Shown piece by piece: positions 1 to 34,009 of a stretch of DNA of 64,000 nt (position 1 is the first letter of the stretch; every line of letters begins with the position of its first letter). The notes under the pieces were generated by a model. It made no database searches. It was not told the DNA's origin and saw only the letters and a list, made by a program, of their open reading frames with translations. This DNA is from Squalus acanthias. Lineage: Eukaryota. The stretch lies in contig JASTWF010000336.1 of assembly GCA_030390025.1 (NCBI GenBank), positions 248,001 through 312,000 of the forward strand, written 5' to 3'. The position numbers were made by a program, and so were the translations under genes.

Positions 1-1
1 C

Positions 2-11832: not shown

Positions 11833-11898
11833 CTCTTTTTGGTTTGTCAAATCAAAATTTACTGTAATCAATTAAAACTTTAAATGAAACTTAACAAA

Positions 11899-15798: not shown

Positions 15799-15823
15799 CT
15801 CAGAAGCATAGTGCAACCTCTAC

Positions 15824-17981
15824 CTAACGGAGGGGAGGGAGGGCGGTCACTGACGACCGCCACTCCCTCAGCAGCCCAGTGTGGAACGTCTTGAGCTGAC
15901 GCAGCTCGAGCCGGCCAACGTCCTTGTCCGCGCCCATGATTTTAACGGCGGCGCGGACGGACACGACGAGCAGCGTCAGCTCCGACCACTTGTCGAGGGC
16001 CAGCCAGATCTTCTTGTGACGACCCTGGCTCATGGCCATAAAATCCCGGAGTTCCCCTACGGGGATGAGGGGAGAGTCGGTGAAGGGCACGAGGGCGTCC
16101 ATCGCCTCGCTGCCGATGGACTCCAAATCGTCCTCGATGCCCCCCACCGAGTCCCCGTCCTCCTCCGGGAGGTCGTCACCGGCGGCCAACCCGTCCGTCA
16201 CACAGGGTGCAGCGAACGGCTCGGCCGCACCGGCCGGCCCCGCCTCCGTCACGATCCCACCCCCAGGATCGGTGGCAGAGGAGTCCACCCTGGGCTCCTT
16301 CAGGGGCGCCGGGCCGGGAGGCGGCGGCGGCGGTTCGGGGCCCCCCCCCCGCCTCAGGCGCCGGGGCGACCGGAGAAACCGGGGAGAAAATAATCCCAAA
16401 TTCCTCCAGCACGTCCGGCGCCAACAACAGAGACGGAGTCAGGGGGCTTTCCGTCTCCCCGCCACCAACCTCCGACCCAGCGGGCTGGGGATTGCTACAC
16501 TCCTCCACCAGGTCGAGCAGTCCCTGGGAGATATCTGGGTTATAAAAGGCGGGCTCGGCTTCAGCCTCTTTGGCCTCGCCCGCCCCAGTCCCCAGGACGC
16601 CCGACCCGGCGAGGAGCAACGGTTCAGGTTCTACATTTTCTTCCGCGGGTTGTTCCGCGCCCCCCCCCACGGGCAGGGTCTCTTCCCCATCCCCGGGAGG
16701 CACAGGTCGGACAGACTCGGCTGTCTCACCCTCCCGAGGGACAGACGACCCCTGCCGATCGCGCGCGACGATGACGGTGGTGGGGTGGGGCGCAGCACCC
16801 GCGGCGGGCGACTGCCCCCCTTTTGCGGAGGGACCTTCCTCCTCGCAGTCCTCCTGCTGGGGGCGGAGCTTTCTTTTTAACGTATTGGGACCCGGAGAGG
16901 GGGAGGCCTCCATGTCTGCTGGGGCCTCCCTCTCTGCCCCCTTCCGACGACTGGGTTTCTTGGGCCCCTCGGGCCCGAGCCCGGCCGCAGGTCTTGATTC
17001 AGCTGCCTCAGCAGTTGCGGTCACGGTCACGGGCCCGGGCACGAGGACCCCCCCAGTCTCATGCGTCCCGACCAACTCCGCGATATACTCGGGCGTGAGT
17101 TCGGTCAATTCCGATGTTTCCTCCGCGAGGGGATCCGCCCTTAGGTGTTTAGTTTTCCTACGCGCCTTCCTTCCCCCCGGACGCTCTCCCTCCTCCCCGC
17201 CGGAGGCCGTGGTGGTGTTGGCCTCCGATTTCAACCGCGCATCCGTCGCCGTCGACGCGCGGACAGTATCAGGGGGAGGGGGGGCGGCAGCGCCAACCCT
17301 GGCCGCGCCAGGTGTCGTGGCGGCCTTGGAGGCGGGGCAGTTTTTGCGGACGTGCCCCACCTCCTTACAGGCGTAGCACCGCGCGCCGTCCGAGGTCCAG
17401 AAGACGCGGTGGGCGGTCCCCCCGTGGAGCACCGTGAACGCGCCGTCCGCGTCCTCCTCCCGCGCCAGCCGGACGAAAAGCTGGCGCCGGAAGGAGAAGA
17501 CGTGCCGAAGGCTGGCTTCCCGGAAGCCGAGCGGGATGGGTGTGATCCCCGACCTCACCTCCCCCAGTTGACGTAGGTGGGGGAGGAGGAGCTCACCCGG
17601 AACAAAGGGCGGGACGTTGGAAACCACAATCCTTTGCGCGGTGGCCTCAAGGGGGTCCACCGGCAGGAAGGTCCCGCCCACGGTGAGCCCCTTCTCGATG
17701 GCCAGGGACACCGCCCGCTCCGACCCCAGGAAGAACACAGCCTTGCCGTACATTTTAGAGGCGGCGACGATGGCTGAAGGGCCGACAACCCCAGCCATGG
17801 CTTTAACGCACGCCTCTATAGTCATGTTGGGGTGAGTGTAGCTCTTGACCCCATTCTTCCTCGTAAGGAGGGTAAAAGGTGACGGGGTAACAGGAGGACT
17901 CGTGGCTGCGGCCGTGGCCGCGGCTGCCACGCTCGCATACGTCCTCGCTGCCCCCGCCACCGACGAAGATGTACTCGCCAT
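15824..17981 (-). pseudogene. Tx1-B1 ORF1 with a +1 shift at a G10 run (16341-16350)
   Basis: CYACKEVGHVRKNC knuckle. Homology to the A ORF1 C-terminus (GGPEPPP...LDKWS) resumes in another frame after the G10. Confidence 0.82.
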
Positions 17982-18966
17982 AATGGAGGGTTCTTTAAGG
18001 GCTACACTCACCCCAAGTCACAGGCCTGAAGGTGTTAATGGCCTCGGTTTTTTATTTCTGTTTTCCCCTGAGCAGAGGGAGCTCTTAAATTGAAGGCACA
18101 CCTCTCCCTTTAGTTGATTGAATTAGGAGAGGGGCCTTCTCCCCTCTGCTCAATAGGTACTTAATTAAAAGATAATGAGGTGCCTCTTAGAGAGAGAGGC
18201 AGAGAGAGACAAGAGACAAAGAGAGAGAGAGAGGGGGGTGGGAAGGAGGGAAGCCGCAAGGGCAGGGTCGCCACTCAGGATGGTGGGTGGGTGGGTGTTG
18301 GCAGGGGGGTGCACTCTCCGATGTAATAAAAGTCTTTGGTGGTGGTCTTCTGGTGGGGGGAGAAGATGTCTTCATCTGGGATAGCTGGAGATGCCCAGGC
18401 TCAGTCCTGCACCAGGTCTTAACGATGCCCAATTGGATTAAATTAATTGGGGAACTTCACCTAGGCAGCTCCAGCTGTCCCAGGTCAGGCAATGGGAAAG
18501 GGGTGTTTAATATGGTGTGTGCGGCCTAGCTTTTACAAAAGCCACACACACACACACCCCTTGGATGTTCCGGCCTTCTTCTTTTTCTTCTTTCCTCCCC
18601 CCACCTACAAAACAAAGTCTCTGGGAGAGTGCACCAGAATCACACCCACCTGTAGCTGTTGTTTTTTCCTTCCTTCCTCCTTCCAAACAGATGATGGATG
18701 TTTTGTTGTTTTCTCCCCTCTCTCCCTCTCCTAAAATGGAGGCCAATTGAGGAGGCAGTGTGGAAAGGCCTCTCCTCTGGTGTTAATGGCCTTGGCCTTC
18801 CTTTCCTTCTTTTCTTTCTCCTCTCCTGTCCTCTCTCTCCAGGCACCTCAGTAGTTGTGGTTGTAGTGGTTGTTGTTGGTGGTGGCCTGCTGTCTGGTCT
18901 GCTTCTCCTTCTCCTCTTCCTGCTCACAGAGACCACCACTCTGCTGCTGCTGCTGCTGCTCCTCAC

Positions 18967-19012
18967 AAGCTTGTGATTTCAAATAAAGCTGTTGGACTAT
19001 AACCTGGTGTTG
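18967..19012 (+). repeat. 46-bp target duplication between B1 and B2
   Basis: Identical to 11787-11832. Confidence 0.9.
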
Positions 19013-19080
19013 ATCTTTTTGGTTTGACAGAACGCAAATTTACTGTAAATCAATTAAAACTTGAAATGAAACTTAATAAA

Positions 19081-22000
19081 TCAAATTAAAATTTGAAAGT
19101 CCGGGGTGACGATGCACTCCAGTCCCCGCGGCGCCCACCGGTCGCGGAAAAACTCAAGCGTGCCGGCGGACACCGCGTGCTCCATCTCCAGGGCCACCCG
19201 GGCGCGAACATGGCCGCGGAAGAGAGGCAGGCAATCGGGCCGAACGACCCCCTCGACCGCCCGCTGCCTGGACCAATTAATGGCTTTCTTGGCCAGGCCC
19301 AGGAGCAGTCCTACGAGGAGGTCCTCCGACCTACCCTCTCCCCTCCGCACCGGGTGACCGTAGATCAGGAGCGTGGGGCTGAAGTGCAACCAGAAATTGA
19401 GGAGCAGCCCCTTCAAATAATGAAAGAGGGGCTGCAACCTCTCACATTCAACATAAATGTGATAAACGGACTCCTCCAGGCCGCAAAAATGACAAGCAGC
19501 CTGGGAGTCCGTAAACCTACTTAAAATCCTATTGCACGGGACTGCTCCGTGCAACACCCTCCGGGCCAAGTCCCCAATAGAACAAGGGAAGACTCCCGCG
19601 TAGAGAGCCTTCCAATGGGGACCTTCGCCTCCGCCGGACGGCAGGATGGTACGCCAAGGCGTGTCCGGACGGCAGACGAAGATGGCAAAGTGGAGAGTGT
19701 GCAGGAGCAGCCCGTACAGGAAACGCCTCCGTGCGGATTGAAAGGGCACGGAGGGCATTTCTCCGAGAAGGCTCAAGTGGTGAGGCGGCGGCTCCCGAGG
19801 GAGGATTCGGGGCCGGGCGCCGATAAGGAATTCCGTCCGAACGGGGGTCAGTTCGGACGGGATCGCCCCACGTGCTTGAGCCTCCTCGACACACCTAGTG
19901 GAGACGGGGCCCAGTGCCACTTTTAGCGACTCGATGGCTTTGACCGCGAGCCGGACGTTGACCCAAGACATGCGCCTCGCCAACTCCTCCGGCGCCATCC
20001 AGCCCGCTCCTCCGCCATCGAGCAGGTCCCCGACTCTGGTCACCTTACCGGGCACAGCCCTGCCCTCCGCCAGCCAGCCGAACCCGCGGTCGTGGAGGTG
20101 CGGATTCCTGAACAGCGGCTCCCGAAGGACGGCCGCCGCTCCTGACGGGGGAGAACTGCGCTCGGAGGCGACGCTGTTCCAAACCCATAGCAGTTCCTGG
20201 TAGAAGACAGGCAGCTCCCGCAGGCTGGCACGCGTGCCACCCACTCTCACAAACAGGAGCTGCGTGTCGTAATTGAGGCCGTGCAGCTGGCGGAAGAAAT
20301 ACGTCGCCAGCGCACGCCACCTAGGAGGATTCTCCACGTACAGGTATCTCTGCAGCGTCTGAAGACGGAAAGTCGCCGCCTGGGTGCGAAGGCACACCAG
20401 CGCCTGACCGCCCTCCCTAAGCGGGAGACTCAAAACTGCGGCAGAGACCCAGTGCTTCCTTTTGTCCCAGAAGAAGTCGACGAGCTTCTTCTGCATCTTG
20501 GCGACAAACGCAGGGGGAGGGATCAAAGTGACCAACCGGTACCACAACATGGCGGCCACCAGCTGGTTTATGACCAGCGCTCGACCCCTGTAGGACAACA
20601 CTCGGAGCAGTCCTGTCCAGCGCCCTAGGCGAGCGGTGACTTTGGCCTCCAGCTCTTGCCAGTTCGCCGGCCAGGCGTCCTCGGCCGGGCTGAGGTAGAC
20701 TCCCAGGTAGAGGAGGTGCGTGGTGCTCCAGGCGAAAGGCCCGAACTCCTCCGGCAGGGAGTCCACCTGCCATGGGCCCACCAGGAGTCCAGAACATTTC
20801 TCCCAGTTGATCTTGGCGGAGGATGCGTCCGAGTAAATCTGCTGGCATTCTCGCATCCTCCGCAAGTCGACGGGATCCGTGACAGCGAGGAGCACGTCAT
20901 CGGCGTAAGCCGAGAGGACCACCTCCACGCCCGGCCCTTGCAGAGCCAGTCCCGTCAACCTCTTCCGCAAGAGGCGCAGGAAAGGCTCCACGCAAACGGC
21001 GTATAACTGACCGGACATGGGGCATCCCTGACGCACCCCCCTCCCGAAGCGAAGGGGCGCCGTCAAAGACCCGTTAACTTTAATCAGACACTCCGCGGCG
21101 GCGTACAGAAGTCGGATCCGGGCGACGAAATGCGTCCCGAACCCGAATGCGCGCAGAGTCCCGAAAAGATACTCGTGATCCACCCTGTCGAACGCCTTCT
21201 CCTGATCCAGGGAAAGGAAGGCGACCGACAGACCAGCCCTCTGGGAATGGTGGACCAGGTCCCGGACCAGATGGATGTTATCGTGGATACTCCGGCCCGG
21301 GACCGTGTAGGACTGGTCGGGGTGGATCATGCGGGCCAGCACGGTGCCAAGGCGAGCAGACATAGCCCTGGCGAAAATTTTGTAGTCCGTGCTGAGGAGG
21401 GAGACCGGGCGCCAGTTCTTAAGTAGGCGGAGATCGCCCTTCTTGGGCAGCAGGACGATGACCGCCCTGCGCCAAGAGAGGGGCATCTCCCCGGTCGCCA
21501 GACTTTCCCCCAGGACCCGCGCGTAGTCGTCCCCCAAGACGTCCCAGAACGCCCTGTGGAACTCCACGGTCAGCCCGTCCAGCCCCGGGGACTTGCCCCT
21601 CGAGAGCTGGCGCAGGGCGCCGGTCAGCTCCGCCAGGCTTAGCGGAGCTTCTAAATTCTCGGCGCCCTCCGGGCCGACCTTCGGCAGGTCCTCCCACAAA
21701 ACTCTGCGCGCATCCTCGCTGGACGGATCCGAAGAGAACAGAGCCCCGTAATAGGCCCGGGCCTCCGCGCTGATGCCCTCCGGATCCGAGACCAGAGATC
21801 CGTCGTCGGCCAGCAGCCCCAAGAGCTGCTTACGGACCCCCCGTCTTTTTTCCAGCGAGTAGAAGAAGGGGGAGCCGCGGTCCAGGTCCCGCAGGAACTG
21901 GATCCGCGACCTCACGTACGCGCCTCGGGACCCGACCAGCTGCAGGTCCTTCAGCGCGCCCTTCTTCTCTTCGTACACCTTCCGCAGGGCCGGGTCCTCG

Positions 22001-22980
22001 ACGACTTGACCGAGACGGGACTCCAGGTCGAGCACTTCTTTCTCCAATCGCCCGACCCGGGCCTCCCGCCTCTTGGTCGACCCCTTCGCGTACTCCTGAC
22101 AGAAGACGCGGACGTGAGCCTTGCCCACGTCCCACCATAGCCTCAAGGAGGGGAAGCCTCCCCGCTTCCTTCTCCAGTCGGCCCAGAACCGGCGAAACGA
22201 ATCCCGGAACCGCGCGTCCTCCAGCAGCAGGTTGTTAAAATGCCAGTACGCGGACCCCCCCCGCGCGCGCAGCGGAGCGAGCTCCGCCCACACCAGGTGG
22301 TGGTCCGTGCACGGCACCGGCCGCATGGAAGCCGCCGGAACGCAGGAGACGTACGCCCGGGAAATGTAAAGGCGGTCGATTCTGGACCTTCCTCCTCCAG
22401 ACCTCACGCTCGTGAAGGCGCTGGAGTCGGGATGGAGATTTCGCCAGACGTCCACCAAGTCGAAGGACCCGACCAGGTCCCGCAACTTCTCCATCGCCGC
22501 CGGGCTTCGCGGGGGACCCGACCGGTCCCGCGCCTCGAGGGTACAATTGAAATCCCCCCCGAGGATGACGCACTCGCCCACGTCGATGGAGCCCAGAAGA
22601 GCGGACACTTCTCCGAAGAAGCGCACTTGCTGCGCACCGGTCCGGGGGGCGTACACGTTCACTAAATGGAGCGGCACGCCTCCCAGGCGAACAGTGACCT
22701 GGAGCAAGCGGCCCGGCACGTGCTCCTTGACCCTCAAGATCTCCGGCTGAAAATGCGGGGCCAGCAAGACAGCCACCCCGCAGGAATTGTTGGAGAGGTG
22801 ACTCATGCTGACCCCTCCTTGCCACTCCAGGAGCCACGTGGCCTCGTCTCCCGGAACGGTGTGGGTTTCTTGCAGGAAGCACACCGCATATTTCCCGTCC
22901 CGAAGGACCGAGAAGTTATTGAATCTACGGCGCGCCTCCCTGCTGCCGTTGATGTTGAGGCTGGCTATGGTTATCTTCAT
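19081..22980 (-). CDS. Tx1-B2 ORF2, intact (1299 aa)
   Basis: Open reading frame with few differences from B1 ORF2. Confidence 0.93.
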   Translation of the reverse strand: MKITIASLNINGSREARRRFNNFSVLRDGKYAVCFLQETHTVPGDEATWLLEWQGGVSMSHLSNNSCGVAVLLAPHFQPEILRVKEHVPGRLLQVTVRLGGVPLHLVNVYAPRTGAQQVRFFGEVSALLGSIDVGECVILGGDFNCTLEARDRSGPPRSPAAMEKLRDLVGSFDLVDVWRNLHPDSSAFTSVRSGGGRSRIDRLYISRAYVSCVPAASMRPVPCTDHHLVWAELAPLRARGGSAYWHFNNLLLEDARFRDSFRRFWADWRRKRGGFPSLRLWWDVGKAHVRVFCQEYAKGSTKRREARVGRLEKEVLDLESRLGQVVEDPALRKVYEEKKGALKDLQLVGSRGAYVRSRIQFLRDLDRGSPFFYSLEKRRGVRKQLLGLLADDGSLVSDPEGISAEARAYYGALFSSDPSSEDARRVLWEDLPKVGPEGAENLEAPLSLAELTGALRQLSRGKSPGLDGLTVEFHRAFWDVLGDDYARVLGESLATGEMPLSWRRAVIVLLPKKGDLRLLKNWRPVSLLSTDYKIFARAMSARLGTVLARMIHPDQSYTVPGRSIHDNIHLVRDLVHHSQRAGLSVAFLSLDQEKAFDRVDHEYLFGTLRAFGFGTHFVARIRLLYAAAECLIKVNGSLTAPLRFGRGVRQGCPMSGQLYAVCVEPFLRLLRKRLTGLALQGPGVEVVLSAYADDVLLAVTDPVDLRRMRECQQIYSDASSAKINWEKCSGLLVGPWQVDSLPEEFGPFAWSTTHLLYLGVYLSPAEDAWPANWQELEAKVTARLGRWTGLLRVLSYRGRALVINQLVAAMLWYRLVTLIPPPAFVAKMQKKLVDFFWDKRKHWVSAAVLSLPLREGGQALVCLRTQAATFRLQTLQRYLYVENPPRWRALATYFFRQLHGLNYDTQLLFVRVGGTRASLRELPVFYQELLWVWNSVASERSSPPSGAAAVLREPLFRNPHLHDRGFGWLAEGRAVPGKVTRVGDLLDGGGAGWMAPEELARRMSWVNVRLAVKAIESLKVALGPVSTRCVEEAQARGAIPSELTPVRTEFLIGARPRILPREPPPHHLSLLGEMPSVPFQSARRRFLYGLLLHTLHFAIFVCRPDTPWRTILPSGGGEGPHWKALYAGVFPCSIGDLARRVLHGAVPCNRILSRFTDSQAACHFCGLEESVYHIYVECERLQPLFHYLKGLLLNFWLHFSPTLLIYGHPVRRGEGRSEDLLVGLLLGLAKKAINWSRQRAVEGVVRPDCLPLFRGHVRARVALEMEHAVSAGTLEFFRDRWAPRGLECIVTPDFQILI

Positions 22981-23005
22981 CTCAGAAGCATAGTGCAACC
23001 TCTAC

Positions 23006-25162
23006 CTAACGGAGGGGAGGGAGGGCGGTCACTGACGACCGCCACTCCCTCAGCAGCCCAGTGTGGAAACTCTTGAGCCGACGCAGCTCGAGCCGGCCAA
23101 CGTCCTTGTCCGCGCCCATGATTTTAACGGCGGCGCGGACGGACACGACGAGCAGCGCCAGCTCCGACCACTTGTCGAGGGCCAGCCGGATCTTCTTGTG
23201 ACGACCCTGGCTCACGGCCATAAAATCCCGAGTTCCCCTACGGGGATGAGGGGAGAGTCGGTGAAGGGCACGAGGGCGTCCATCGCCTCGTTGCCGATGG
23301 ACTCCAAATCGTCCTCGATGCCCCCCACCGAGTCCCCGTCCTCCTCCGGGAGGTCGTCACCGGCGGCCGACCCGTCCGTCGCACAGGGTGCAGCGAACGG
23401 CTCGGCCGCACCGGCCGGCCCCGCCTCTGTCACGATCCCACCCCCAGGATCGGTGGCAGAGGAGTCCACCCTGGGCTCCTTCAGGGGCGCCGGGCCGGGA
23501 GGCGGCGGCGGCGGTTCGGGGCCCCCCCCCCGCCTCAGGCGCCGGGGCGACCGGAGAAACCGGGGAGCAAATAATCCCAAATTCCTCCAGCACGTCCGGC
23601 GCCAACAACAGAGACGGAGTCAGGGGGCTTTCCGTCTCCCCGCCACCAACCTCCGACCCAGCGGGCTGGGGATTGTTAAAGTCCTCCACCAGGTCGAGCA
23701 GTCCCTGGGAGATATCTGGATTGTAAAAGGCGGGCTCGGCTTCAGCCTCTTTGGCCTCGCCCGCCCCAGTCCCCAGGACGCCCGACCCGGCGAGGAGCAA
23801 CGGTTCAGGTTCTACATTTCCCTCCGCGGGTTGTTCCGCGCCCCCCCCCACGGGCAGGGTCTCTTCCCCATCCCCGGGAGGCACAGGTCGGACAGACTCG
23901 GCTGTCTCACCCTCCCGAGGGACAGACGACCCCTGCCGATCGCGCGCGACGATGACGGTGGTGGGGTGGGGCGCAGCACCCGCGGCGGGCGACTGCCCCC
24001 CTTTTGCGGAGGGACCTTCCTCCTCGCAGTCCTCCTGCTGGGGGCGGAGCTTTCTTTTTAACAAGTTGGGGCCCGGAGAGGGGGAGGCCTCCATGTCTGC
24101 TGGGGCCTCCCTCTCTGCCCCCTTCCGACGACTGGGTTTCTTGGGCCCCTCGGGCCCGAGCCCGGCCGCAGGTCTTGATTTAGCCGCCTCGGCGGTTGCG
24201 GTCACGGTCACGGGCCCGGGCACGAGGACCCCCCCAGTCTCATGCGTCCCGACCAACTCCGCGATATACTCGGGCGTGAGTTCGGTCAATTCCGATGTTT
24301 CCTCCGCGAGGGGATCCGCCCTTAGGTGTTTAGTTTTCCTACGCGCCTTCCTTCCCCCCGGACGCTCTCCCTCCTCCCCGCCGGAGGCCGTGGTGGTGTT
24401 GGCCTCCGATTTCGACCGCGCATCCGTCGCCGTCGACGCGCGGACAGTATCAGGGGGAGGGGGGGCGGCGGCGCCAACCCCGGCCGCGCCAGGTGTCGTG
24501 GCGGCCTTGGAGGCGGGGCAGTTTTTGCGGACGTGCCCCACCTCCTTACAGGCGTAGCACCGCACGCCGTCCGAGGTCCAGAAGACGCGGTGGGCGGTCC
24601 CCCCGTGGAGCACCGTGAACGCGCCGTCCGCGTCCTCCTCTCGCGCCAGCCGGACGAAAAGCTGGCGCCGGAAGGAGAAGACGTGCCGAAGGCTGGCTTC
24701 CCGAAAGCCGAGCGGGATGGGTGTGATCCCCGACCTCACCTCCCCCAGTTGACGTAGGTGGGGGAGGAGGAGCTCACCCGGAACAAAGGGCGGGACGTTG
24801 GAAACCACAATCCTTTGCGCGGTGGCCTCAAGGGGGTCCACCGGCAGGAAGGTCCCGCCCACGGTGAGCCCCTTCTCGATGGCCAGGGACACCGCCCGCT
24901 CCGACCCCAGGAAGAACACAGCCTTGCCGTACATTTTAGAGGCGGCGACGATGGCTGAAGGGCCGACAACCCCAGCCATGGCTTTTACACACGCCTCTAT
25001 AGTCATGTTGGGGTGAGTGTAGCTCTTGACCCCATTCTTCCTCGTAAGGAGGGTAAAAGGTGACGGGGTAACAGGAGGACTCGTGGCTGCGGCCGTGGCC
25101 GCGGCTGCCACGCTCGCGTACGTCCTCGCTGCCCCCGCCACCGGCGAAGATGTGGTCGCCAT
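23006..25162 (-). pseudogene. Tx1-B2 ORF1, frameshifted
   Basis: Same G10 run (23522-23531), plus a 1-bp deletion near 23230 relative to B1. Confidence 0.8.
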
Positions 25163-26757
25163 AATGGAGGGTTCTTTAAGGGCTACACTCACCCCAAGTC
25201 ACAGGCCTGAAGGTGTTAATGGCCTTGGTTTTTTTTGTTTTAGTTTTCCCCTGAGCAGAGGGAGCTCTTAAATTGAAGGCACACCTCTCCCTTTAGTTGA
25301 TTGAATTGGGAGAGGGGCCTTCTCCCCTCTGCTCAATGGGTACTTAATTAAAAATAGATGAGGTGCCTCTTAGAGAGAGAGGCAGAGAGAGACAAGAGAC
25401 AAAGAGAGAGAGAGAGGGGGTGGAAGGAGGGAAGCCGCAAGGGCAGGGTCGCCACTCAGGATGGTGGGTGGGTGGGTGTTGGCAGGGGGGTGCACTCTCC
25501 GATGTAATACAAGTCTTTGGTGGTGGTCTTCTGGTGGGGGGAGAAGATGTCTTCACCTGGGATAGCTGGAGATGCCCAGGCTCAGTCCTGCACCAGGTCT
25601 TAACGATGCCCAATAATATTAAGTTAATTGGGGACTTCACCTAGGCAGCTCCAGCTGTCCCAGGTCAGGCAATAGAAAGGGGGTGTTTAATATGGTGTGT
25701 GCGGCCTAGCTTTTACAAAAGCCACACACACACACCCCGAGTGCGGTCCCAGGCGAGGACAGACGGAGGCAGAGGCTGAGGCTGCGAGGGACTCAGCTCA
25801 ACTTGGTGCTGCGTGAACGGGTGAGCGCCGTTTGCTGAGAAGAGGAGGGGAAAGGAGAGGTCTCTTTTCTCTGTGCCTAGAAGGAGAAGGAGCCACGAAG
25901 GACAGAGTGGAGACCTTTCCACCTCCACCACGCCTGCAGCTACAGCTACAACCACGACTGCTGCTGAGGTGAGAGAGGAGAGGAGAGGAGAGGAGAGAGA
26001 GGAGACCAGCAACAACAGAGGGAAGCCTTTCCATCACTGCCTCCCCAACTGGTCTCCATTTCGAGAGAGGGAGAGAGGGGAGAACAAGACCAACATCTGC
26101 TTGGAAGGAGGGAGAGCGAGCCATCGAGAAGGAAAACAACATCGAGAGGTGGGTGTTAAAAAGGGCACTCTCCAAAAGACTTTGTATTTGAGGTGGGGGG
26201 AGGAAAGAAGAAGGAGAAGACCGGGATAGCAAGGGGAGTGTGTGTGGCTCTTGCTAACAACTCGGCCACACACACCATCAACAAGCACCCCTTGCCTATT
26301 GCTTCACATTTTAGAACATTGTTAAGACCTGGTTGTAGACTGAGCCTGGGCATCTCCAGCTTTATTTTTTCCCAGGTGAAGACATCTTCTCCCCCCACCA
26401 GAAGAACATCAACAAAGACTTTATTTATCATCGAAGAGTGCCCCCCCCCCCAGGAGGCACCCACCCACCCACTATCCTGAGTGGCGAATAGGCCCGTGCG
26501 GCTTTCCTCCTTCCCACCCCCTCTCTCTCTCTCTCTCTCTGCCTCTCTCTAACGAGGCACCTCAAACCTTATTTATTACCCAATTGAGCAGAGGGGAGAA
26601 GGCCACTCCCAATTCCAATCATAAAAGGGAGAGGTGTGCCTTCTTTTTCTCAAAACAACTCCCTCTGCTCGGGGGAAAAGACAAAAAAACCCAAGGCCAC
26701 TTAAACATCACCCGGCCTGTGACTTGGGGTGGGTGTAGCCCTTTATACCACCTCAGT

Positions 26758-28845
26758 ATGGCGAGCACATCTTCGCCGGCGGCGGGGCAAGCAAGGTCGT
26801 ACGCGGGTGTGGCAGCCACGGCCACAGCTGGTCCCGCTGCTTCTGCTGCCCCGTCACCTTTCAGGCTATTGACAAAAAAGCTGGGGGTGAAGAGCTACAC
26901 TCACCCCAACATGACCATAGAGGCTTGCGTCAAAGCCATGGCTGGGGTAGTCGGCCCCTCAGCCATCGTTGCGGCCTCTAAAATGTACGGTAAGGCTGTG
27001 TTCTTCCTGCGGTCGGAGCGGGCGGTGTCCCTGGCCGTCACCGAGGGGCTCACCGTGGGCGGGACCTTCCTGCCGGTGGATCCGCTCGAGGCCACCGAGC
27101 AGCGACTCATACTATCGAATGTCCCGCCCTTTGTTCCGGTTGAGCTCCTCCTCCCCCACCTACGTCAACTGGGGGAGGTGAGGTCGGGGATTAATCCGAT
27201 CCCGCTCGGCTGCAGGGAGGCCAGCCTCCGGCACGTCTTCTCCTTCCGGCGCCAGCTGTTTATCCAGCTGGCGCGGGAGGAAGACACGGAAGGCGCATTT
27301 AGCATAACACACGAGGGGACCGCCTACCGCGTCTTCTGGACGTCGGACGGTGTGCGGTGCCACGCCTGTAAGGAGGTGGGGCACATAAGAAAGAACTGCC
27401 CCGCCTCCAAGGCCGCCAAAGCATCTGAGGCGGCCAAGGCTGGCGCCGCCGCCGCTCCTCCCCCTGTTTCTGTCCGCGCGTCTGCGACACCCGATGCGCG
27501 GTCGACGCCGGAGGTCAACGCCGTCGCGGCCTCCGGCGAAGGGGAGGGGGAGCGTCCGACTGGAAGGAAGGCGCGGAGGAAAAGCAAACACCTTCAGGCG
27601 GGTCCCCTTCACATATATGATGACTTACCCGAGCTTACGCCCCTACACCTTGCGCGGGTGGCGGCGGAGTTCGAGAATGCGAGGGACCTTGTGCCCGGGC
27701 CTGCGGCCGCATCCGCCAAGGCGGCAAAATCGAGACCTGCGGCCGTGACCGGGCCCGGGACCCCCGAGCAGACCGATCGACAGGGGGGAGCGGAGGTGGA
27801 GGCCTCGGTATGCATGGAGGTCTCCCAACCTTCGTGTCCCTCCTCTTCGAAAAGGAGGCGCGACATCCTGGATGAGGGGGAGGACCGCGAGGAACGGGGT
27901 CCCCCCTCGCAAGGGGAGTCGTTGCCCGCCGCGGGTGCTGCGCCCCCCCCCACCGACACCATCACCGACATCCGGCAGGGGCCGCCTGTCCCCCGGGAGG
28001 GCATGACAGATGAGTCTGTCCAGCCTGTGCCTCCCGGGGATGGGGGAGAGGCCCTGCTCATGGGGGGGGCCGCGGAACTACCCGCGGTGGGGAGTTACGC
28101 TGATCCGTTGTTTCTCGCCAGGTCGGGCATCCTGGGGACCGGGGCGGGCGAGGCCGATGAGGCAGAGCCCGCCGTGTACGGTCAGGACCACTCCCAGGCA
28201 CTGCTCGACCTGGTTGAGCAATATAACCAGGGTACCTGGTCCGCTGGGTCGGAGGATGGTGGCGGTGAAGGGGAAGGCCCCCTGACTCCGTCTGCGACGC
28301 TGGCGCCGGGGTTGTTGAGGGAACTGGCACTAATGTGCTCCCCGGTTTCCCTGTGCACCCCGGTGCCGGGGGCGGAGGGGGGCCCCGAGCCGCCGCCGCT
28401 TCCTGACCCGGCGCCTCTGGAGGAGCCCAGGGAGGACTCCTCTGCTGCCGATCCTGGGGGTGGGATCGGGGCAGAGGTAGGGCTGGCCGATGGCGACCCC
28501 CCGGAGGAGGACGGGGACCCGGCGGAGGACACTGAGGATGATATGGAATCCGTCGCCAGTGAGGCGGCGGATGCCCTCGTGCCCTCCTCCGGGTCCCCCC
28601 TCATCCCCGTTGTGGAACTCCGGGACTTTGTGGCCATGGGCCAGGGTCGCCAGGATATAATCCGGCTGGCCATCGATAAATGGTCGGATCTGGCGCTGCT
28701 CGTTTGCTCCGTCCGCGCCGCAGTCAAAACCATGGGCGCGGACGGGGGCGTGGGCCTGGCCGAGCGGCGTCGGATCCAGAATTTCCTCGCTGGGCTTGGA
28801 AGGGAGTGGCGGTCGACTAGCGGCCGCGCTCCCTCCTCCCGTTAG
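26758..28845 (+). CDS. Tx1-A3 ORF1, intact (695 aa from the ATG)
   Basis: Conserved N-terminal domain, CCHC knuckle and long Pro/Ala/Glu-rich tail. Confidence 0.88.
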   Translation: MASTSSPAAGQARSYAGVAATATAGPAASAAPSPFRLLTKKLGVKSYTHPNMTIEACVKAMAGVVGPSAIVAASKMYGKAVFFLRSERAVSLAVTEGLTVGGTFLPVDPLEATEQRLILSNVPPFVPVELLLPHLRQLGEVRSGINPIPLGCREASLRHVFSFRRQLFIQLAREEDTEGAFSITHEGTAYRVFWTSDGVRCHACKEVGHIRKNCPASKAAKASEAAKAGAAAAPPPVSVRASATPDARSTPEVNAVAASGEGEGERPTGRKARRKSKHLQAGPLHIYDDLPELTPLHLARVAAEFENARDLVPGPAAASAKAAKSRPAAVTGPGTPEQTDRQGGAEVEASVCMEVSQPSCPSSSKRRRDILDEGEDREERGPPSQGESLPAAGAAPPPTDTITDIRQGPPVPREGMTDESVQPVPPGDGGEALLMGGAAELPAVGSYADPLFLARSGILGTGAGEADEAEPAVYGQDHSQALLDLVEQYNQGTWSAGSEDGGGEGEGPLTPSATLAPGLLRELALMCSPVSLCTPVPGAEGGPEPPPLPDPAPLEEPREDSSAADPGGGIGAEVGLADGDPPEEDGDPAEDTEDDMESVASEAADALVPSSGSPLIPVVELRDFVAMGQGRQDIIRLAIDKWSDLALLVCSVRAAVKTMGADGGVGLAERRRIQNFLAGLGREWRSTSGRAPSSR

Positions 28846-28876
28846 AGTAAGGTAGAGGTTGCACTATGCTCTTGTC

Positions 28877-31800
28877 ATGAAGATAACCATAGCCAGCCTC
28901 AACATCAACGGCAGCAGAGAGGCACGCCGTAGATTTAATAACTTCTCGTCCCTTCGGGAAGGGAGGCATGCGGTGTGCTTCCTGCAGGAAACTCACACCG
29001 TTCCGGGAGACGAGGCCACGTGGCTCCTGGAGTGGCGAGGAAGGGTCAGCATGAGTCACCTCTCCAACGTTTCCGGTGGGGTGGCTATCTTGCTGGCCCC
29101 GCATTTTCAGCCGGAGATCTTGGGGGTCAAGGAGCATGTGCCGGGCCGCTTGCTCCAGGTCACTGTTCGTCTGGGGGGCGTGCCGCTCCATTTAGTGAAC
29201 GTGTACGCCCCCCAGCCCGGTGCGCAGCAAGTGCGCTTCTTCGATGAAGTGTCCGCTCTTCTGGGCACCGTCGACGTCGGCGAGTGCATCATCCTCGGGG
29301 GGGATTTTAATTGTACCCTCGAGGCGAGGGACCGTTCGGGCCCTCCGCGAAGCCTGACGGCGACGGTGAAGTTGAGGGACCTGGTCGGGTCCTTCGACTT
29401 GGTGGACGTCTGGCGAAATCTCCATCCCGACTCCAGCGCCTTCACTTGGGTGGGGTCTGGAGGAGGAAGGTCCAGAATCGACCGCCTTTATATTTCCCGG
29501 GCGTACGTCTCCTGCGTTCCGGCGGCTTCCATGCGGCCGGTGCCGTGCACGGACCACCACCTGGTGTGGGCGGAGCTCGCTCTGTTGCAGGCGCCGGGGG
29601 GGTCCGCGTACTGGCATTTTAACAACCTGCTGCTGGAGGACGTGCGGTTCCGGGATTCGTTTCGCTGGTTCTGGGCCGACTGGAGAAGGAAGCAGGGGGG
29701 CTTCCCCTCCTTGAGGCTATGGTGGGACGTGGGCAAGGCTCACGTCCGTCTCTTCTGTCAGGAGTACGCGAAGGGGTCGACCAAGAGGCGGGAGGCCCGG
29801 GTCGGGCGATTGGAGAAAGAAGTGCTCGACCTGGAGTCCCGTCTCGGTCAAGTCGTCGAAGACCCGGCCCTGCGGAAGGTGTACGAAGAGAAGAAGGGCG
29901 CGCTGAAGGACCTGCAGCTGGTCGGGTCCCGAGGCGCGTACGTGAGGTCGCGGATCCAGTTCCTGCGGGACCTGGACCGCGGCTCCCCCTTCTTCTACTC
30001 GCTGGAAAAAAGACGAGGGGTCCGTAAGCAGCTCTTGGGGCTGCTGGCCGACGACGGATCTCTGGTCTCGGATCCGGAGGGGATCAGCGCGGGGACCCGG
30101 GCCTATTACGGGGCTCTGTTCTCTCCGGATCCGTCCAGCGAGGATGCGCGCAGAGTTTTGTGGGAGGACCTGCCGAAGGTCGGCCCGGAGGGCGCCGAAG
30201 AATTGGACGCTCCGCTAAGTTTGGCGGAGCTGACCGGCGCCCTGCGCCAGCTCTCGAGGGGAAAGTCCCCGGGGCTGGACGGGCTGACCGTGGAGTTCCA
30301 CAGGGCGTTCTGGGACGTCTTGGGGGGCGACTACGCGCGGGTCCTGGGGGAAAGTCTGGCGACCGGGGAGATGCCCCTCTCTTGGCGCAGGGCGGTTATC
30401 GTCCTGCTGCCCAAGAGGGGTGATCTCCGCCTTTTAAAAAACTGGCGCCCGGTCTCCCTCCTCAGCACGGACTATAAAATTTTTGCCAGGGCCATGTCTG
30501 CCCGCCTCGGCACCGTGCTGGCCCACATGATCCACCCCGACCAGTCCTACACGGTCCCGGGCCGGACAATCCACGACAACATCCATCTGGTCCGGGACCT
30601 GGTCCACCTTTCCCAGAGGACTGGTCTGTCGGTCGCCTTCCTTTCCCTGGATCAGGAGAAGGCGTTCGACAGGGTGGATCACGAGTATCTCTTCGGGACT
30701 CTGCGCGCATTCGGGTTCGGGACGCATTTCGTCGCCCGGATCCGACTTCTGTACGCCGCCGCGGAGTGTCTGATTAAAGTTAACGGGTCTTTGACGGCGC
30801 CCCTTCGCTTCGGGAGGGGGGTGCGTCAGGGATGCCCCATGTCCGGTCAGTTATATGCCGTTTGCGTGGAGCCTTTCCTGCGCCTCTTGCGGAAGAGGTT
30901 GACGGGACTGGCTCTGCAAGGGCCGGGCGTGGAGGTCGTCCTCTCGGCTTACGCCGATGACGTGCTCCTCATGGTCACGGATCCCGTCGACCTGCGGAGG
31001 ATGCGAGAATGCCAGCAGATTTACTCGGACGCATCCTCCGCCAGGATCAACTGGGAGAAATGTTCTGGACTCCTGGTGGGCCAGTGGCGGGTGGACTCCC
31101 TGCCGGAGGAGTTCAGGCCCTTCGCCTGGAGCACAACACACCTCCTCTACTTGGGAGTCTACCTCGGCCCTGCCGAGGACACCTGGCCGGCGAACTGGCA
31201 AGAGCTGGAGGCCAAGGTCACCGCTCGCCTAGGACGCTGGACGGGGTTGCTCCGAGTGTTGTCCTACAGGGGTTGAGCGCTGGTCATAAACCAGCTGGTG
31301 GCCGCCATGTTGTGGTACCGGTTGGTCACTTTGATCCCTCCCCCTGCGTTTGTCGCCAAGATACAGAAGATGCTCATCGACTTCTTCTGGGACAAAAGGA
31401 AGCACTGGGTCTCTGCCGCGGTTCTGTGTCTCCCGCTTAGGGAGGGCGGTCAGGCGCTGGTGTGCCTTCGCACCCAGGCGGCGACTTTCCGTCTTCAGAC
31501 GCTGCAGAGGTACCTTTACGTCGAGAATCCTCCCAGATGGTGTGCGCTGGCGACGTATTTCTTCGGCCAGATGCACGGCCTCAACTACGACACGCAGCTC
31601 CTGTTTGTGGAATTGGGCCACACGCGAGCCTACCTGTGGGAGCTGCCTGTCTTTTACCAGGAACTGCTATGGGTCTGGAACCAGGTCGCCTCCAGGCGGA
31701 GTTCTCCCCCGTCAGGAGTGGCGGCTCTCCTTCGGGAGCCGCTGTTCAGGAATCCGCACCTCCACGTCCGACGGATCGGCTGGCTGGCGGAGGGCAGGGC

Positions 31801-32776
31801 TGTGCCAGGCAAGGTGACCAGAGTCAGGGACCTGCTCGATGGCGGAGGAGCGGGCTGGATGGCGCCAGAGGAGTTGGCGCGGCGCCTCTCCTGGGCAGAC
31901 GTCTGGCGCGCGGCCAAAGCCATCAAGTTGCTGAAAGTGGCACTGGGCCCGGACTCCACTAGGTGTATCGAGGAGGCTCAAGCACGTGGGGCGATCCCGT
32001 CCGAACTGACCTCCGTTCGGACGGAATTCCTCATCGGCGCACGGCCCCGAAACCCCTCTCGGGAACCGGCGCCTCACAACTTGAGCCGTCTCGGGGAAAT
32101 GCCCTCCGTGCCCTTCAGTTCTGCACGGAGGGGTTTCCTGTACGGGCTGCTCCTGCACACTTTCCACTTTGTCATCTTCGCCTGCCGTCCGGACACGCCT
32201 TGGCGTGCCATCTTGCCGTCCGGCGGAGGCGAAGGTCCCCAATGGAGGGCTCTCTATGCGGGAGTACTCCCCTTTTCTATTGGGGACATGGCCTGGAGGG
32301 TGCTGCACGGAGCAGTCCCGTGCAATCGGTTTTTAAGTAGGTTCACGGACTCCCAGGCCGCCTGTCTTTTTTGCGGCCTCGAGGAGTCCGTGTTCCACGT
32401 TTATGTGGAATGTGAGAGGTTGCAGCCCCTCTTTGAATATTTGAAGGGGCTGCTCCTCGCTTTTTGGTTGCACTTCAGTCCCACGCTCCTGATCTACGGT
32501 CACCCGGTGCGGAGGGGAGAGAGCAAGTCGGAGGACCTCCTCGTAGGACTGCTCCTGGGCCTGGCCAAAGTGGCCATTAACAGGTCCAGGCAGCGGGCGG
32601 TCGAGGGGGTCGTTCGGCCCAATTGCCTGCCTCTCTTCCGCGGCTATGTTCGCGCCCGGGTGGCCCTGGAGATGGAGCATGCGGTGTCCGCCGGCACACT
32701 TGAAGCCTACCGAGACCGGTGGGCGCCGCAGGGACTGGAGTGCATCGTTTCCCCGGGAAATGTTATTTTAATTTAA
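28877..32776 (+). pseudogene. Tx1-A3 ORF2 with a premature stop
   Basis: CGA changed to TGA at 31274-31276; the frame is otherwise continuous. Confidence 0.9.
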
Positions 32777-32798
32777 TGCACTCCAAGTTGTCCGCTTC

Positions 32799-33210
32799 GC
32801 AGAAGGCCCAAGGTGGAAGACCCGGAGGAGAGTGGCCTGGGCGGGAGGCCCAGCACGGAGAACCCCAGGCGGGGGGCCCAGGGCGGAGCGGCTGGTCGGC
32901 AGAGGTGGAGTCAGGAGATGCGGTTGCTTCACCCCGGGTGCTCGTGGGGAATGCCGGTGCGGAGGGTCCGGTGCAGAAGGCCCAAGGTGGAAGACCCAGA
33001 GGAGAGTGGCCTGGGCGGGAGGCCCAGCACGGAGAACCCCAGGCGGGGGGCCCAGGGCGGGGCGGCTGGTCGGCAGAGGTGGAGTCGGGAGATGCGGTTG
33101 ATTCACCCCGGCTGCTCGCGGGGAATGCCGGTGCGGAGGGTCCGGTGCAGAAGGCCCAAGGTGGAAGACCCGGAGGAGAGTGGCCTGGGCGGGAGGCCCA
33201 GCACGGAGAA
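32799..33210 (+). repeat. 174-bp tandem repeat in the A3 3' UTR
   Basis: Copy of 2919-3330. Confidence 0.9.
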
Positions 33211-33911
33211 CAATTGAGTGGATGGTCGGGTGGGTGGTGCCAGTGGGACTGGCGCGGAACAGGTTTCTTGGGTTATTGGAGTGGATGTTATATGTGGCAT
33301 TTAGTTGGATTGTGATGGTGCTATGTGTTTGTACACTGTGGTGTTGAAATGAGTTGTTTTATGTGGAGTTAAGTGAGATGTATTATTTTAATATAAAAAA
33401 AAGTGTGGTATTGTTTGGGGGTATTTGTACTGTATTTTGATGGATGAATGTAATGGTTTTACTATGTAATTTGTATTATTGGTTTGAATAAAAGATTCAC
33501 ACACACACACACCCCTTGGATGTTCCGGCCTTCTTCTTTTTCTTCTTTCCTCCCCCCACCTACAAAACAAAGTCTCTGGGAGAGTGCCCCAGAATCACAC
33601 CCACCTGTAGCTGTTGTTCTTTCCTTCCTCCCTCCTTCCAAACAGATGATGTTTGTTGTTGATGTTTTCTCCCCTCTCTCCCTCTCCTGAAATGGAGGCC
33701 AATTGAGGAGGCAGTGTGGAAAGGCCTCTCCTCTGTTGTTAATGGCCTTGGCCTTCCTTTCCTTCTCCTTCTCCTTCTCCTGTCCTGTCCTCTCTCTCCA
33801 GGCACCTCAGTAGTGGTTGTTGGTTGGTGGTGGTCTGCTGTCTGGTCTCCTTCTCCTTTTCCTGCTCACAGAGACCACCACTCTGCTGCTGCTGCTGCTG
33901 CTGCTCCTCAC

Positions 33912-34009
33912 AAGCTTGTGATTTCAAATAAAGCTGTTGGACTATAACCTGGTGTTGTGCGACTTCTCACTTTTGTCCACCCCAGTCCAACACCGGCATC
34001 TCCACATCA
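33912..34009 (+). mobile_element. 3' end of the host Penelope-like terminal repeat (pLTR)
   Basis: The 46-bp unit continues TGCGACTTCTCACTTTTGTCCACCCCAGTCCAACACCGGCATCTCCACATCA, matching the reverse complement of 55288-55385 at the Penelope terminus. Confidence 0.88.

What the first reader, a model, noticed from the sequence alone, without database searches (positions are those of the whole stretch)
33912..34009. Tx1-B targets the Penelope pLTR at the hammerhead, with an unusually long 46-bp duplication
Seen: an identical 46-mer sits at 11787, 18967 and 33912, and only the last continues into further pLTR sequence. A related empty target is visible at 57705-57763. The duplication starts at GA|AAGCTT, inside the catalytic GAAA, and B 3' ends join CAACACCAGG. 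Inference: the nicks are 46 bp apart and each insertion regenerates the target, which allows tandem stacking. A ribozyme-adjacent sequence would be a conserved multicopy target.
Basis: partly seen in the sequence, partly recalled or inferred. Interest (0 to 1): 0.85.

Follow-up and report, generated by a model that had tools for sequence, protein, structure and literature searches.

The report
Tx1-type LINE targeting Penelope element tails
A young Tx1-type jumping gene inserts at one fixed spot in the tail of Penelope-like elements, just past their small hammerhead ribozyme, and the 46-base "duplication" beside it is mostly a copy of the target that the jumping gene carries at its own front end.

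Summary
An identical 46-mer sits at 11787, 18967 and 33912, and only the last runs on into a Penelope-like element (PLE) tail. Unoccupied targets lie at 57705 (+) and 55340 (-).

"B" is a Tx1-clade LINE on the minus strand. Its ORF2 has APE and RT domains and is 50% identical to Xenopus Tx1 ORF2.

Across the genome, B 3' ends abut ...CCTGGTGTTG of PLE-derived sequence in 37 of the 40 best matches. That point is 40 bp 3' of the predicted cleavage site of a minimal hammerhead. Tandem B arrays are common.

The inference that the nicks lie 46 bp apart is not supported:
- In 13 insertions examined at both ends, the local 46-mer and the one beside B's 5' end were identical in only 2. Two pairs differed at 3 positions and two at 5-6, and the B-side copy always had a form seen beside other B copies.
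- Two pairs had a different, heritable 5' terminus that shares only 11 nt with the target.
- Four independent 5'-truncated copies carry only 11-18 nt of the 46-mer.

The 46-mer is therefore a target-derived 5' leader inherited with B. It re-creates the target, which allows stacking.

This is a new member of a known kind. Tx1 elements that target other transposons, R1 tandem arrays and R2 RNAs that carry target tags are all already described.

The parts
33912..33957 (-). 46-nt leader at the 5' end of B2, identical to the antisense of the PLE target. On the + strand it reads as PLE positions A14 of GAAA through ...GGTGTTG.
   Evidence: shown to be inherited with B
33958..34009 (+). PLE 3' tail (tgcgacttctca...catca), the local target sequence on the upstream side of B's insertion point
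   Evidence: The same tail follows 24 of 40 sampled B 5' junctions. Contig loose ends at 34010/34011 mark a repeat boundary.
33498..33911 (-). B2 5' UTR terminal segment, separated from the rest of B2 by the A2 insertion
25739..33497 (+). A2, a related Tx1-type element (about 92% nucleotide identity to B across the ORF2 region), inserted in the (AC)n tract of B2's 5' UTR and flanked by about (AC)6 on both sides
19013..25738 (-). B2 body. ORF2 19081-23001 and ORF1 23357-25198 are both open.
18967..19012 (-). 46-nt leader of B1, abutting the 3' end of B2
11833..18966 (-). B1, full length at 7134 bp. ORF2 11899-15819 (1306 aa; APE, RT, zf-RVT). ORF1 16176-18017 (613 aa; zf-CCHC).
11787..11832 (-). 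46-nt leader of B0, abutting the 3' end of B1
11377..11786 (-). B0 5' UTR terminal segment. The rest of B0 lies at window coordinates -51,963 to -45,232, beyond a ~57-kb array of A copies.
1..11376 (+). Last two copies of the tandem A array that splits B0: A0 3' part up to about 3617, and A1 at 3624-11376
57673..57764 (+). Unoccupied target: minimal hammerhead (57673-57714, predicted cleavage after 57710), 46-mer variant 57705-57750, and a short 14-nt tail
55288..55417 (-). Second unoccupied target on the other arm of an inverted PLE pair: hammerhead, 46-mer 55385-55340, and 52-nt tail down to 55288
55660..57291 (-). PLE ORF (543 aa) with a weak RT match and a YIGET-type GIY-YIG C-terminus

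Best explanation
B is a young Tx1-clade non-LTR retrotransposon, probably still active. It is specific for one site in the 3' terminal repeat of a Penelope-like element.

Shown: B's 3' end is always joined right after ...CCTGGTGTTG on the PLE sense strand. That point is 40 bp 3' of the predicted cleavage site of the PLE's minimal hammerhead and 14-52 bp from the PLE 3' end. B lies antisense to the PLE.

Inferred from standard target-primed reverse transcription: B's APE endonuclease nicks the PLE sense strand between GTGTTG and TGCGAC and primes cDNA synthesis there.

Shown: the 46-mer next to B's 5' end is largely inherited with B. It is a 46-58-nt leader that copies the target sequence lying downstream of the insertion point, not a fresh duplication of the local target.

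Inferred: the second nick is variable, 11-34 bp away. The end of the full-length cDNA, complementary to the leader, anneals to the target overhang. This gives precise 5' junctions and mosaic copies, local near GTGTTG and B-derived near AAGCTT.

Inferred: each full-length insertion places a new leader against the intact PLE tail, so the recognition site is rebuilt. Further copies can then add at that end, giving arrays such as B0-B1-B2 here. Unequal crossing-over also amplifies some arrays elsewhere in the genome.
For: Family. ORF2 matches RVT_1 at 8.4e-38 and Exo_endo_phos at 1.6e-11; ORF1 matches zf-CCHC. The best named relative is Xenopus Tx1 149-kDa protein, 50% identity over 99% of the query.

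Site specificity. I took the 40 best matches to a 158-nt B 3' end query that contains no 46-mer (plus loci already read):
- 13 are preceded by a PLE left half plus a full 46-mer.
- 11 are preceded by a B 5' end plus the 46-mer.
- 12 are preceded by a 5'-truncated B plus 11-18 nt of the 46-mer. These are two arrays of 5 and two singles; 4 of the C17 copies are inferred from spacing, not read.
- 1 is preceded by an inverted PLE arm plus 15 nt.
- 3 are preceded by non-PLE flanks that still end in (G)TGTTG.

5' side. Of 40 sampled B 5' end plus 46-mer junctions, 24 are followed by the PLE tail, 16 by the next B 3' end and 0 by anything else.

Leader rather than duplication. In 13 insertions with both junctions read: 0 differences in 2; 1 difference in 4; 3 differences in 2; 5-6 differences in 2; one rearranged copy (34 nt of target plus a leader lacking 11 nt); and 2 with an alternative terminus sharing only ACCTGGTGTTG. 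All substitutions fall at positions 9-22, on the B side, except one at position 46.

The PLE subfamily forms GTAAT.../GTAAAA... occur in 11 of 26 46-mers next to PLE left halves and in 0 of 35 next to B 5' ends (Fisher p = 1.8e-5; the copies are not all independent).

The alternative terminus recurs at three loci, L046, L094 and L095.

B 3' regions are over 99% identical among copies, so post-insertion mutation cannot explain haplotype swaps of 3-6 positions.

Independent insertions in the window. B0, B1 and B2 have three different 3'-terminal variants, and each is seen elsewhere in the genome.

Precedents in the literature. R2 RNAs carry target tags that anneal at the 5' junction, and earwig R2 carries a heritable 22-bp copy of downstream 28S with substitutions (PMC3774820, passages read). 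R1 tandem arrays are built by insertion into the duplication at an element's 5' end (PMC2718515, passages read).
Against: - Six of 13 pairs differ at 0 or 1 position, which a true duplication would also give.
- Some arrays share rare variants in the target-proximal part across consecutive 46-mers (L017/L018, L024/L025). This fits either a real short duplication or array duplication.
- No B transcript 5' end was mapped. The RNA-like runs available are contigs only and skip the repeat.
- No full-length B carrying the leader was found at a non-PLE site, so "travels with B" rests on mismatches between PLE subfamilies.
- The 5' ends of the three off-target copies were not found at the expected distance.
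- The restricted paired test is weak: 0 of 11 against 4 of 13, p = 0.10.
- The annealing step and the endonuclease's recognition sequence are inferred, not shown.
- The left end of this locus's own array is atypical: a diverged 38-mer next to an inverted arm.
Confidence: 0.75

Rival explanations
1. B's endonuclease makes two fixed nicks 46 bp apart, at GA|AAGCTT and GTGTTG|TGCGAC. The 46-mer is then a true target-site duplication made afresh at each insertion.
For: Three identical 46-mers in the window. Two of 13 pairs are identical and 4 differ at one position. Consecutive 46-mers within some arrays share rare variants. One rearranged junction (L051) implies an overhang of at least 34 nt, so long staggers can occur.
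Against: Four pairs differ at 3-6 positions, with the B-side copy matching forms that recur beside B at other loci. The PLE subfamily forms appear in 0 of 35 B-side copies against 11 of 26 PLE-side copies. Four independent 5'-truncated copies carry only 11, about 13, 15 and 18 nt. An alternative 5' terminus sharing only 11 nt is found at three loci. The B/46-mer boundary itself differs between B lineages...ctcac|AAGCTT against ...cagcagctccga|AAGCTT, so 46 against 52-58 nt.
Confidence: 0.1
2. The B0-B1-B2 array arose mainly by unequal crossing-over or tandem duplication of a [46-mer + B] unit, not by repeated insertion. Stacking would then say nothing about target regeneration.
For: The period is regular, about 7.18 kb, at 98.5% identity. 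Elsewhere there are clear duplication products: an array of ~331-bp units, each with the same truncation point plus 18 nt, on C8, and a higher-order repeat on C17.
Against: B0, B1 and B2 carry three distinct 3'-terminal variants, and each is shared with copies at unrelated loci. Only B0 and B2 contain A insertions. Other arrays also mix 3' variants: L048, L052 and L053 differ from their left neighbours.
Confidence: 0.1
3. B is not specific for the PLE as such. It recognises a short motif, ...CAACAC on its sense strand, and PLE tails dominate only because they are extremely abundant.
For: Three of 40 best 3' junctions lie in non-PLE sequence ending GAGTGTTG, GAGTGTTG and CCTGTTG. The related element A joins its 3' end to (AC)n. 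PLE tail depth in read contigs is enormous.
Against: 37 of 40 junctions are at the same nucleotide of PLE-derived sequence. A 6-nt motif would occur hundreds of thousands of times in 3.7 Gb outside PLEs. Re-insertion occurred next to copies that retain only 11-18 nt of target plus the tail, which implies that recognition includes the tail side.
Confidence: 0.05

Closest known systems
Tx1L of Xenopus laevis and other target-specific Tx1-clade LINEs (Keno, Kibi, Koshi, Tx1-Mar and others)
   Same: The ORF architecture is the same. ORF2 is 50% identical to Tx1 ORF2 over its whole length. Insertion into a fixed site of another multicopy element is typical of the clade: Tx1L goes into the piggyBac-type Tx1D; crocodilian Tx1 families go into Mariner, Harbinger and LTR elements; others go into microsatellites and snRNA genes. 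Tandem insertions sandwiching a duplication and target-derived heads are reported (PMC4494074, passages read; PMC1950540, passages read).
   Different: The target here is a Penelope-like retroelement tail. None of my searches found a paper describing that (Repbase itself could not be searched). The target-derived leader is long, 46-58 nt. I recall a 23-bp duplication for Tx1L, but I could not check it because the two original papers are not held.
R2 elements whose RNA keeps 28S sequence, especially earwig R2
   Same: Target sequence at the RNA 5' end is proposed to anneal through the cDNA to the target and give uniform 5' junctions. Junction variants become part of the template and are propagated. 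[quoted passage not shown]
   Different: R2 has a restriction-like endonuclease and an HDV-like ribozyme that sets the RNA 5' end. B is APE-type and lies antisense to the nearby hammerhead, so that ribozyme cannot process B RNA. How B's RNA 5' end is set is unknown.
R1 tandem arrays in Drosophila rDNA
   Same: An APE-type site-specific LINE whose copies are separated by the duplicated target sequence (14 bp). The arrays are explained by insertion of new copies into the duplication at the 5' end of a resident copy (PMC2718515).
   Different: In ancestral-type R1 the 14 bp is a true duplication, present also at 5'-truncated copies. Here the truncated copies have 11-18 nt and the full 46 nt is present only on full-length copies.
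Minimal hammerhead ribozymes of PLE terminal repeats (Cervera and de la Pena 2014)
   Same: CUGANGA, one bulged nucleotide, a 5-bp helix II with G10.1-C11.1, GAAA, palindromic 15.2-16.2 (GC), U16.1, H17, and a short helix I. The motifs occur in PLE repeats, often as pairs on opposite strands 100-700 bp apart (PMC4209133, passages read; motif table).
   Different: No Rfam hammerhead model matches, even at E up to 10. Self-cleavage is untested.

Membership tests
Tx1 clade of APE-type non-LTR retrotransposons | ORF2 with an N-terminal APE endonuclease followed by a reverse transcriptase | tested here: met
   Exo_endo_phos at residues 13-234 (1.6e-11) and RVT_1 at 519-768 (8.4e-38). zf-RVT at 7.6e-5 is below the Pfam cut-off.
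Tx1 clade of APE-type non-LTR retrotransposons | Closest relatives are Tx1-clade ORF2 proteins | tested here: met
   The best named hit is Xenopus laevis Transposon TX1 149 kDa protein, 50% identity over 99% of the query. No RT phylogeny with other clades was built.
Tx1 clade of APE-type non-LTR retrotransposons | ORF1 with a zinc knuckle | tested here: met
   zf-CCHC 3.7e-4, 20.9 bits against a cut-off of 20.8
Site-specific LINE | 3' junctions at one nucleotide position of a defined target in independent copies | tested here: met
   37 of the 40 best 3'-end matches abut ...GTGTTG of PLE-derived sequence (4 of these inferred, not read); 3 of 40 are off-target.
Site-specific LINE | Element-encoded endonuclease nicks the target at the insertion point | not testable with these tools
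   Needs an in vitro nicking assay.
True 46-bp target-site duplication | Both flanking copies derive from the local target and are identical at insertion, whatever the element's length | tested here: not met
   Of 13 pairs, 7 differ by 3 or more positions or in structure. 5'-truncated copies carry 11-18 nt.
Penelope-like element (the target) | A single ORF with RT and a C-terminal GIY-YIG endonuclease | tested here: inconclusive
   RVT_1 at 3.7e-6, below the cut-off, and no Pfam GIY-YIG match. A ...VVYLIRC...WYIGET... motif is visible in the translation. The nearest Atlas clusters carry RVT_1 plus GIY-YIG on 21-28% of members, score 0.97. The copy in the window is 5'-truncated.
Penelope-like element (the target) | Terminal repeats (direct or inverted) carrying a hammerhead motif | tested here: met
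   An inverted repeat, 55326-55842 against 57764-57262, at 96% identity, with the motif in both arms.
Minimal type-I hammerhead ribozyme | Conserved core CUGANGA...GAAA, helix II with G10.1-C11.1, palindromic 15.2/16.2, H17, helix I | tested here: met
   27 instances, 19 distinct. Helix II is 5 bp or more in 15 of the 19, and helix I is 4 bp in 14 of the 19. There is one compensatory change in helix I (tCac/gtGa against tTac/gtAa) between subfamilies.
Minimal type-I hammerhead ribozyme | Match to a curated hammerhead covariance model | tested here: not met
   No Rfam hammerhead hit at gathering threshold over the window, or at E up to 10 over 55200-57900. Helix III is absent as a monomer, and the published descriptor allows for that.
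Minimal type-I hammerhead ribozyme | Self-cleavage | not testable with these tools
   Needs an in vitro transcription and cleavage assay with dimeric constructs.

The most novel reading that the evidence does not exclude
B lineages have captured 46-58 nt of antisense PLE sequence, including the 3' third of the hammerhead, as a heritable 5' leader. That leader would serve as a homology arm for second-strand priming and would also rebuild B's own recognition site. B would then be a self-stacking parasite of a ribozyme-bearing retroelement. It would sit in the middle of a three-tier nest: A inserts into the (AC)n tract of B's 5' UTR, B inserts into the PLE tail, and the PLE sits in a histone gene cluster. 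A uses the same trick on a smaller scale, since its 5' end begins ACCCC like its target.
Probability: 0.55. Interest if true: 0.5.

Novelty: new member of a known kind. Interest (0 to 1): 0.35.

Why it matters
It adds a Penelope-like retroelement to the list of targets used by Tx1-clade LINEs. It also gives a clean natural data set for an open question in LINE biology: how the 5' end is joined.

Hundreds to thousands of near-identical copies sit in a target that exists as several sequence subfamilies. At each junction this lets one tell which bases came from the element's RNA and which from the local DNA.

It is also a caution for annotation. A long perfect "duplication" beside a site-specific LINE can be part of the element. 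The mechanism itself has close precedents in R1 and R2, so this is of interest to specialists and not a surprise.

Tried and rejected
- **Rfam:** no hammerhead hit over the window at gathering threshold or over 55200-57900 at E up to 10. The motif was then checked by pattern.
- **Large genome fetches:** I went on with small pieces, as the tool's message allowed.
- **5' ends of the three off-target B copies:** not found at the expected 7.17 kb. One place holds another B in the opposite orientation and two hold unrelated sequence. Whether the leader travels to non-PLE sites stays open.
- **RNA evidence:** no RNA holder is listed. The four runs laid are contigs of guessed type that skip 33751-33915, so they say nothing about B's transcript start or expression.
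- **Original Tx1 papers:** the two papers (PMC85248, PMC362770) are not held, so the 23-bp duplication I recall for Tx1L is unverified.
- **Earlier notes of this scan:** none for this place.
- **Hammerhead processing of B RNA:** considered and dropped, because B is antisense to the motif.
- **B as a Penelope-like element with its own repeats:** considered and dropped, because B encodes APE plus RT, not GIY-YIG.

Full report
**1. The observation**

The 46-mer is exact at 11787, 18967 and 33912. A 3-mismatch copy lies on the minus strand at 55340. None was expected by chance in 100 shuffles. A 4-mismatch copy lies at 57705.

Left of each of the three exact copies is the same sequence...ctgctgctgctcctcac. 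Right of the first two is ctcttttt.../atcttttt.... Right of the third is tgcgacttctcac...catca. That last stretch matches the end of the repeat at 55339-55288.

**2. Layout of the region**

Self-comparison and ORF scans show two related elements.

B lies on the minus strand:
- B1 is 11833-18966 (7134 bp), with ORF2 of 1306 aa and ORF1 of 613 aa, both open.
- B2 is 19013-25738 plus 33498-33911. It is split by A2 (25739-33497, + strand), which sits in the (AC)n tract of B's 5' UTR.
- Only the last 410 bp of B0's 5' UTR is in the window (11377-11786).

I fetched 130 kb upstream of the window. This showed that B0 is split by a ~57-kb tandem array of A copies. B0's body lies at window coordinates -51,906 to -45,232.

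In B's own orientation the array reads: PLE tail, 46-mer, B2, 46-mer, B1, 46-mer, B0.

**3. What B and the target are**

B ORF2 has APE and RT domains and ORF1 has a CCHC knuckle. The best named relative is the Xenopus Tx1 149-kDa protein, at 50% identity over 99% of the query. The label "Tx1" is therefore justified.

The target belongs to an element whose 543-aa ORF (55660-57291, minus strand) has a weak RT match and a visible ...WYIGET... GIY-YIG-type C-terminus. Its nearest Atlas clusters combine RVT_1 and GIY-YIG. Its ends form a 96% inverted repeat.

In that repeat, and in 27 instances (19 distinct) collected from other loci, the sequence fits the published minimal hammerhead of PLE repeats. 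It has CUGANGA, one bulged base, a helix II (5 bp or more in 15 of the 19 distinct forms), GAAA, a palindromic GC, U16.1, H17 and a helix I (4 bp in 14 of the 19). One compensatory change in helix I separates subfamilies (descriptor in PMC4209133, passages read).

Rfam's models do not detect it, and activity is untested.

With this numbering the 46-mer begins at A14. Predicted cleavage is after its sixth base. B's 3' junction is 40 bp further 3'.

**4. Site specificity across the genome**

The assembly is 3.7 Gb. A 204-nt query (46-mer plus B 3' end) gave 40 scored matches at 98-100% identity out of 2028 first-look candidates. Many were spaced about 7.18 kb apart.

In the 30 loci returned, the 46-mer that abuts B's 3' end is preceded by a B 5' end in 19 and by a PLE left half with the hammerhead in 11.

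A query of the B 3' end alone, which is unbiased for the flank, gave 40 full-length matches. Combined:
- 13 have a PLE left half plus a full 46-mer.
- 11 have a B 5' end plus the 46-mer.
- 12 have a 5'-truncated B plus a partial 46-mer. These are one array of ~331-bp units on C8 (five hits), one higher-order repeat on C17 (five hits, one read and four inferred), and two singles.
- 1 has an inverted PLE arm plus 15 nt.
- 3 have non-PLE flanks ending GAGTGTTG, GAGTGTTG and CCTGTTG.

On the 5' side, 40 sampled junctions of B 5' end plus 46-mer are followed by the PLE tail in 24, by the next B 3' end in 16, and by nothing else. B therefore targets one nucleotide position of the PLE tail, with roughly 1 in 13 of the sampled copies off-target.

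**5. Is the 46-mer a duplication made by nicks 46 bp apart?**

For 13 insertions whose 3' junction lies in a PLE left half, I read the junction about 7.17 kb away (tabulated). Comparing the local 46-mer with the one beside B's 5' end gave:
- identical in 2;
- one difference in 4;
- three differences in 2 (L030/L044, L020/L047);
- five or six differences in 2 (L065/L093, L064/L092);
- one rearranged copy (L051), made of 34 nt of target followed by a leader lacking its first 11 nt;
- two (L046, L094) where B ends in a different sequence that shares only ACCTGGTGTTG with the target. The same alternative terminus occurs at a third locus (L095).

Every substitution but one lies at positions 9-22, on the side next to B.

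Where the local PLE belongs to the GTAAT... or GTAAAA... subfamilies, the B-side copy still has the form that recurs beside B elsewhere. Those subfamily forms occur in 11 of 26 PLE-side copies and in 0 of 35 B-side copies (p = 1.8e-5). The copies are not all independent. The restricted paired comparison, 0 of 11 against 4 of 13, gives only p = 0.10.

B 3' regions are over 99% identical among copies, so later mutation does not explain these swaps.

Four independent 5'-truncated copies are followed by only 11, about 13, 15 and 18 nt of the 46-mer.

The boundary between B-unique sequence and the repeat also differs among B lineages. It is ...ctcac|AAGCTT in the window and ...cagcagctccga|AAGCTT elsewhere, which extends the match to the PLE to 52-58 nt.

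Together these results show that most of the 46-mer is inherited with full-length B. The real stagger is short and variable.

**6. Mechanism**

Shown:
- the fixed 3' junction;
- the heritable leader;
- short duplications at truncated copies;
- arrays whose members differ in their 3'-terminal variants. B0, B1 and B2 each match variants found at unrelated loci.

Inferred:
- The first nick is on the PLE sense strand at GTGTTG|TGCGAC and primes cDNA synthesis.
- The second nick is 11-34 bp away.
- The end of the full-length cDNA, complementary to the leader, anneals to the overhang. This gives a precise junction and mosaic copies.
- Each insertion leaves leader plus intact tail, which is the recognition site, so arrays grow at the tail side.

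The last point is supported by re-insertion next to truncated copies that kept only 11-18 nt of target on one side but the tail on the other.

Unequal crossing-over also amplifies arrays, as on C8 and C17.

The leader probably began as a long duplication or as read-through flanking sequence captured into the template. This has been proposed for R2 (PMC3774820).

**7. This locus's own left end**

B0's 3' end is preceded by a 38-nt partial 46-mer with four mismatches. That partial copy abuts an inverted PLE arm. A similar structure, an inverted arm plus 15 nt, occurs at L062.

Head-to-head PLE fragments are common. In several, one arm is occupied by B and the other is empty (L003, L012, L016, L020, L029, L030). 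This agrees with the published note of paired motifs on opposite strands.

The diverged left copy next to three identical leader copies is itself what the leader model predicts.

**8. Comparison with what is known**

Tx1-clade elements are known to target other transposons, microsatellites and small RNA genes. They are also known to form tandem insertions around a duplication and to carry target-derived heads (PMC4494074; PMC1950540).

R1 forms tandem arrays by inserting into the duplication at an element's 5' end (PMC2718515). R2 RNAs carry target tags that guide the 5' junction, and earwig R2 carries a heritable 22-bp copy of downstream target (PMC3774820).

Three full-text searches found no paper describing a Tx1 element that targets a Penelope-like element. 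Repbase could not be searched.

**9. Verdict**

This is a new member of a known kind, and a useful natural data set on LINE 5' joining. Interest 0.35.

Noticed in passing
window 1-11376 and 25739-33497; upstream to window coordinate -45,213 (L031-L035): Element A is a Tx1-type relative of B (about 92% nucleotide identity across the ORF2 region and about 78% across the ORF1 region). It inserts in the (AC)n tract of B's 5' UTR and forms a tandem array of about eight copies (~57 kb) inside B0. A-A junctions are GATTC-(AC)1-3-CCCGAG. A's 5' end begins ACCCC like the sequence that follows the (AC)n in its target, which is a small-scale version of B's target-like leader.
   Followed up: partly
G000:C8:141706425-141710760 (L054-L058): A satellite-like array of ~331-bp units. 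Each unit is the last ~313 bp of B plus 18 nt of the 46-mer, all with the same truncation point. It looks like tandem amplification of one 5'-truncated insertion.
   Followed up: partly
G000:C17:51123109-51164122 (L059): A higher-order repeat in which a ~249-bp 5'-truncated B plus 11 nt of target is paired with a longer B copy. It recurs five times at 7.7-16.8 kb spacing. Only one unit was read.
   Followed up: partly
L046, L094, L095: A B lineage with an alternative 5' terminus (...ggctgctgaggctat[c/a]ACCTGGTGTTG) in place of the 46-mer, found at three unrelated loci.
   Followed up: partly
G000:C8:78181500-78181690 (L110): Two B copies face each other 5' end to 5' end across two 13-nt PLE tails in tail-to-tail orientation, separated by about 27 nt of other sequence. 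The origin of this arrangement is not explained.
   Followed up: no
window 34500-47500: A histone gene cluster with four histone 3' stem-loops (36231, 36974, 46220, 47440) and a tRNA gene at 41467-41538. A histone H1-like coding stretch and a stem-loop also lie just left of B0, about window -52,600 to -52,210. The whole B/A array is therefore embedded in a histone repeat.
   Followed up: no
window -127,749 to -123,530 (L043): Another Tx1-like copy in + orientation with a different 3' end (...aaattaaaagag) joined to unrelated sequence. It may be a third family with another target.
   Followed up: no
window 47958-49259 (-), 49800-53550 and 57760-61200: A further RT ORF (RVT_1 9.6e-27) and long arrays of degenerate tandem repeats flank the PLE copies.
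   Followed up: no
window 33958-34009 and 57751-57764; L012, L016, L020, L076, L086, L109, L114: PLE copies end either about 13-14 nt or 52 nt after the 46-mer, so there are two classes of PLE 3' end. B is found in both.
   Followed up: partly
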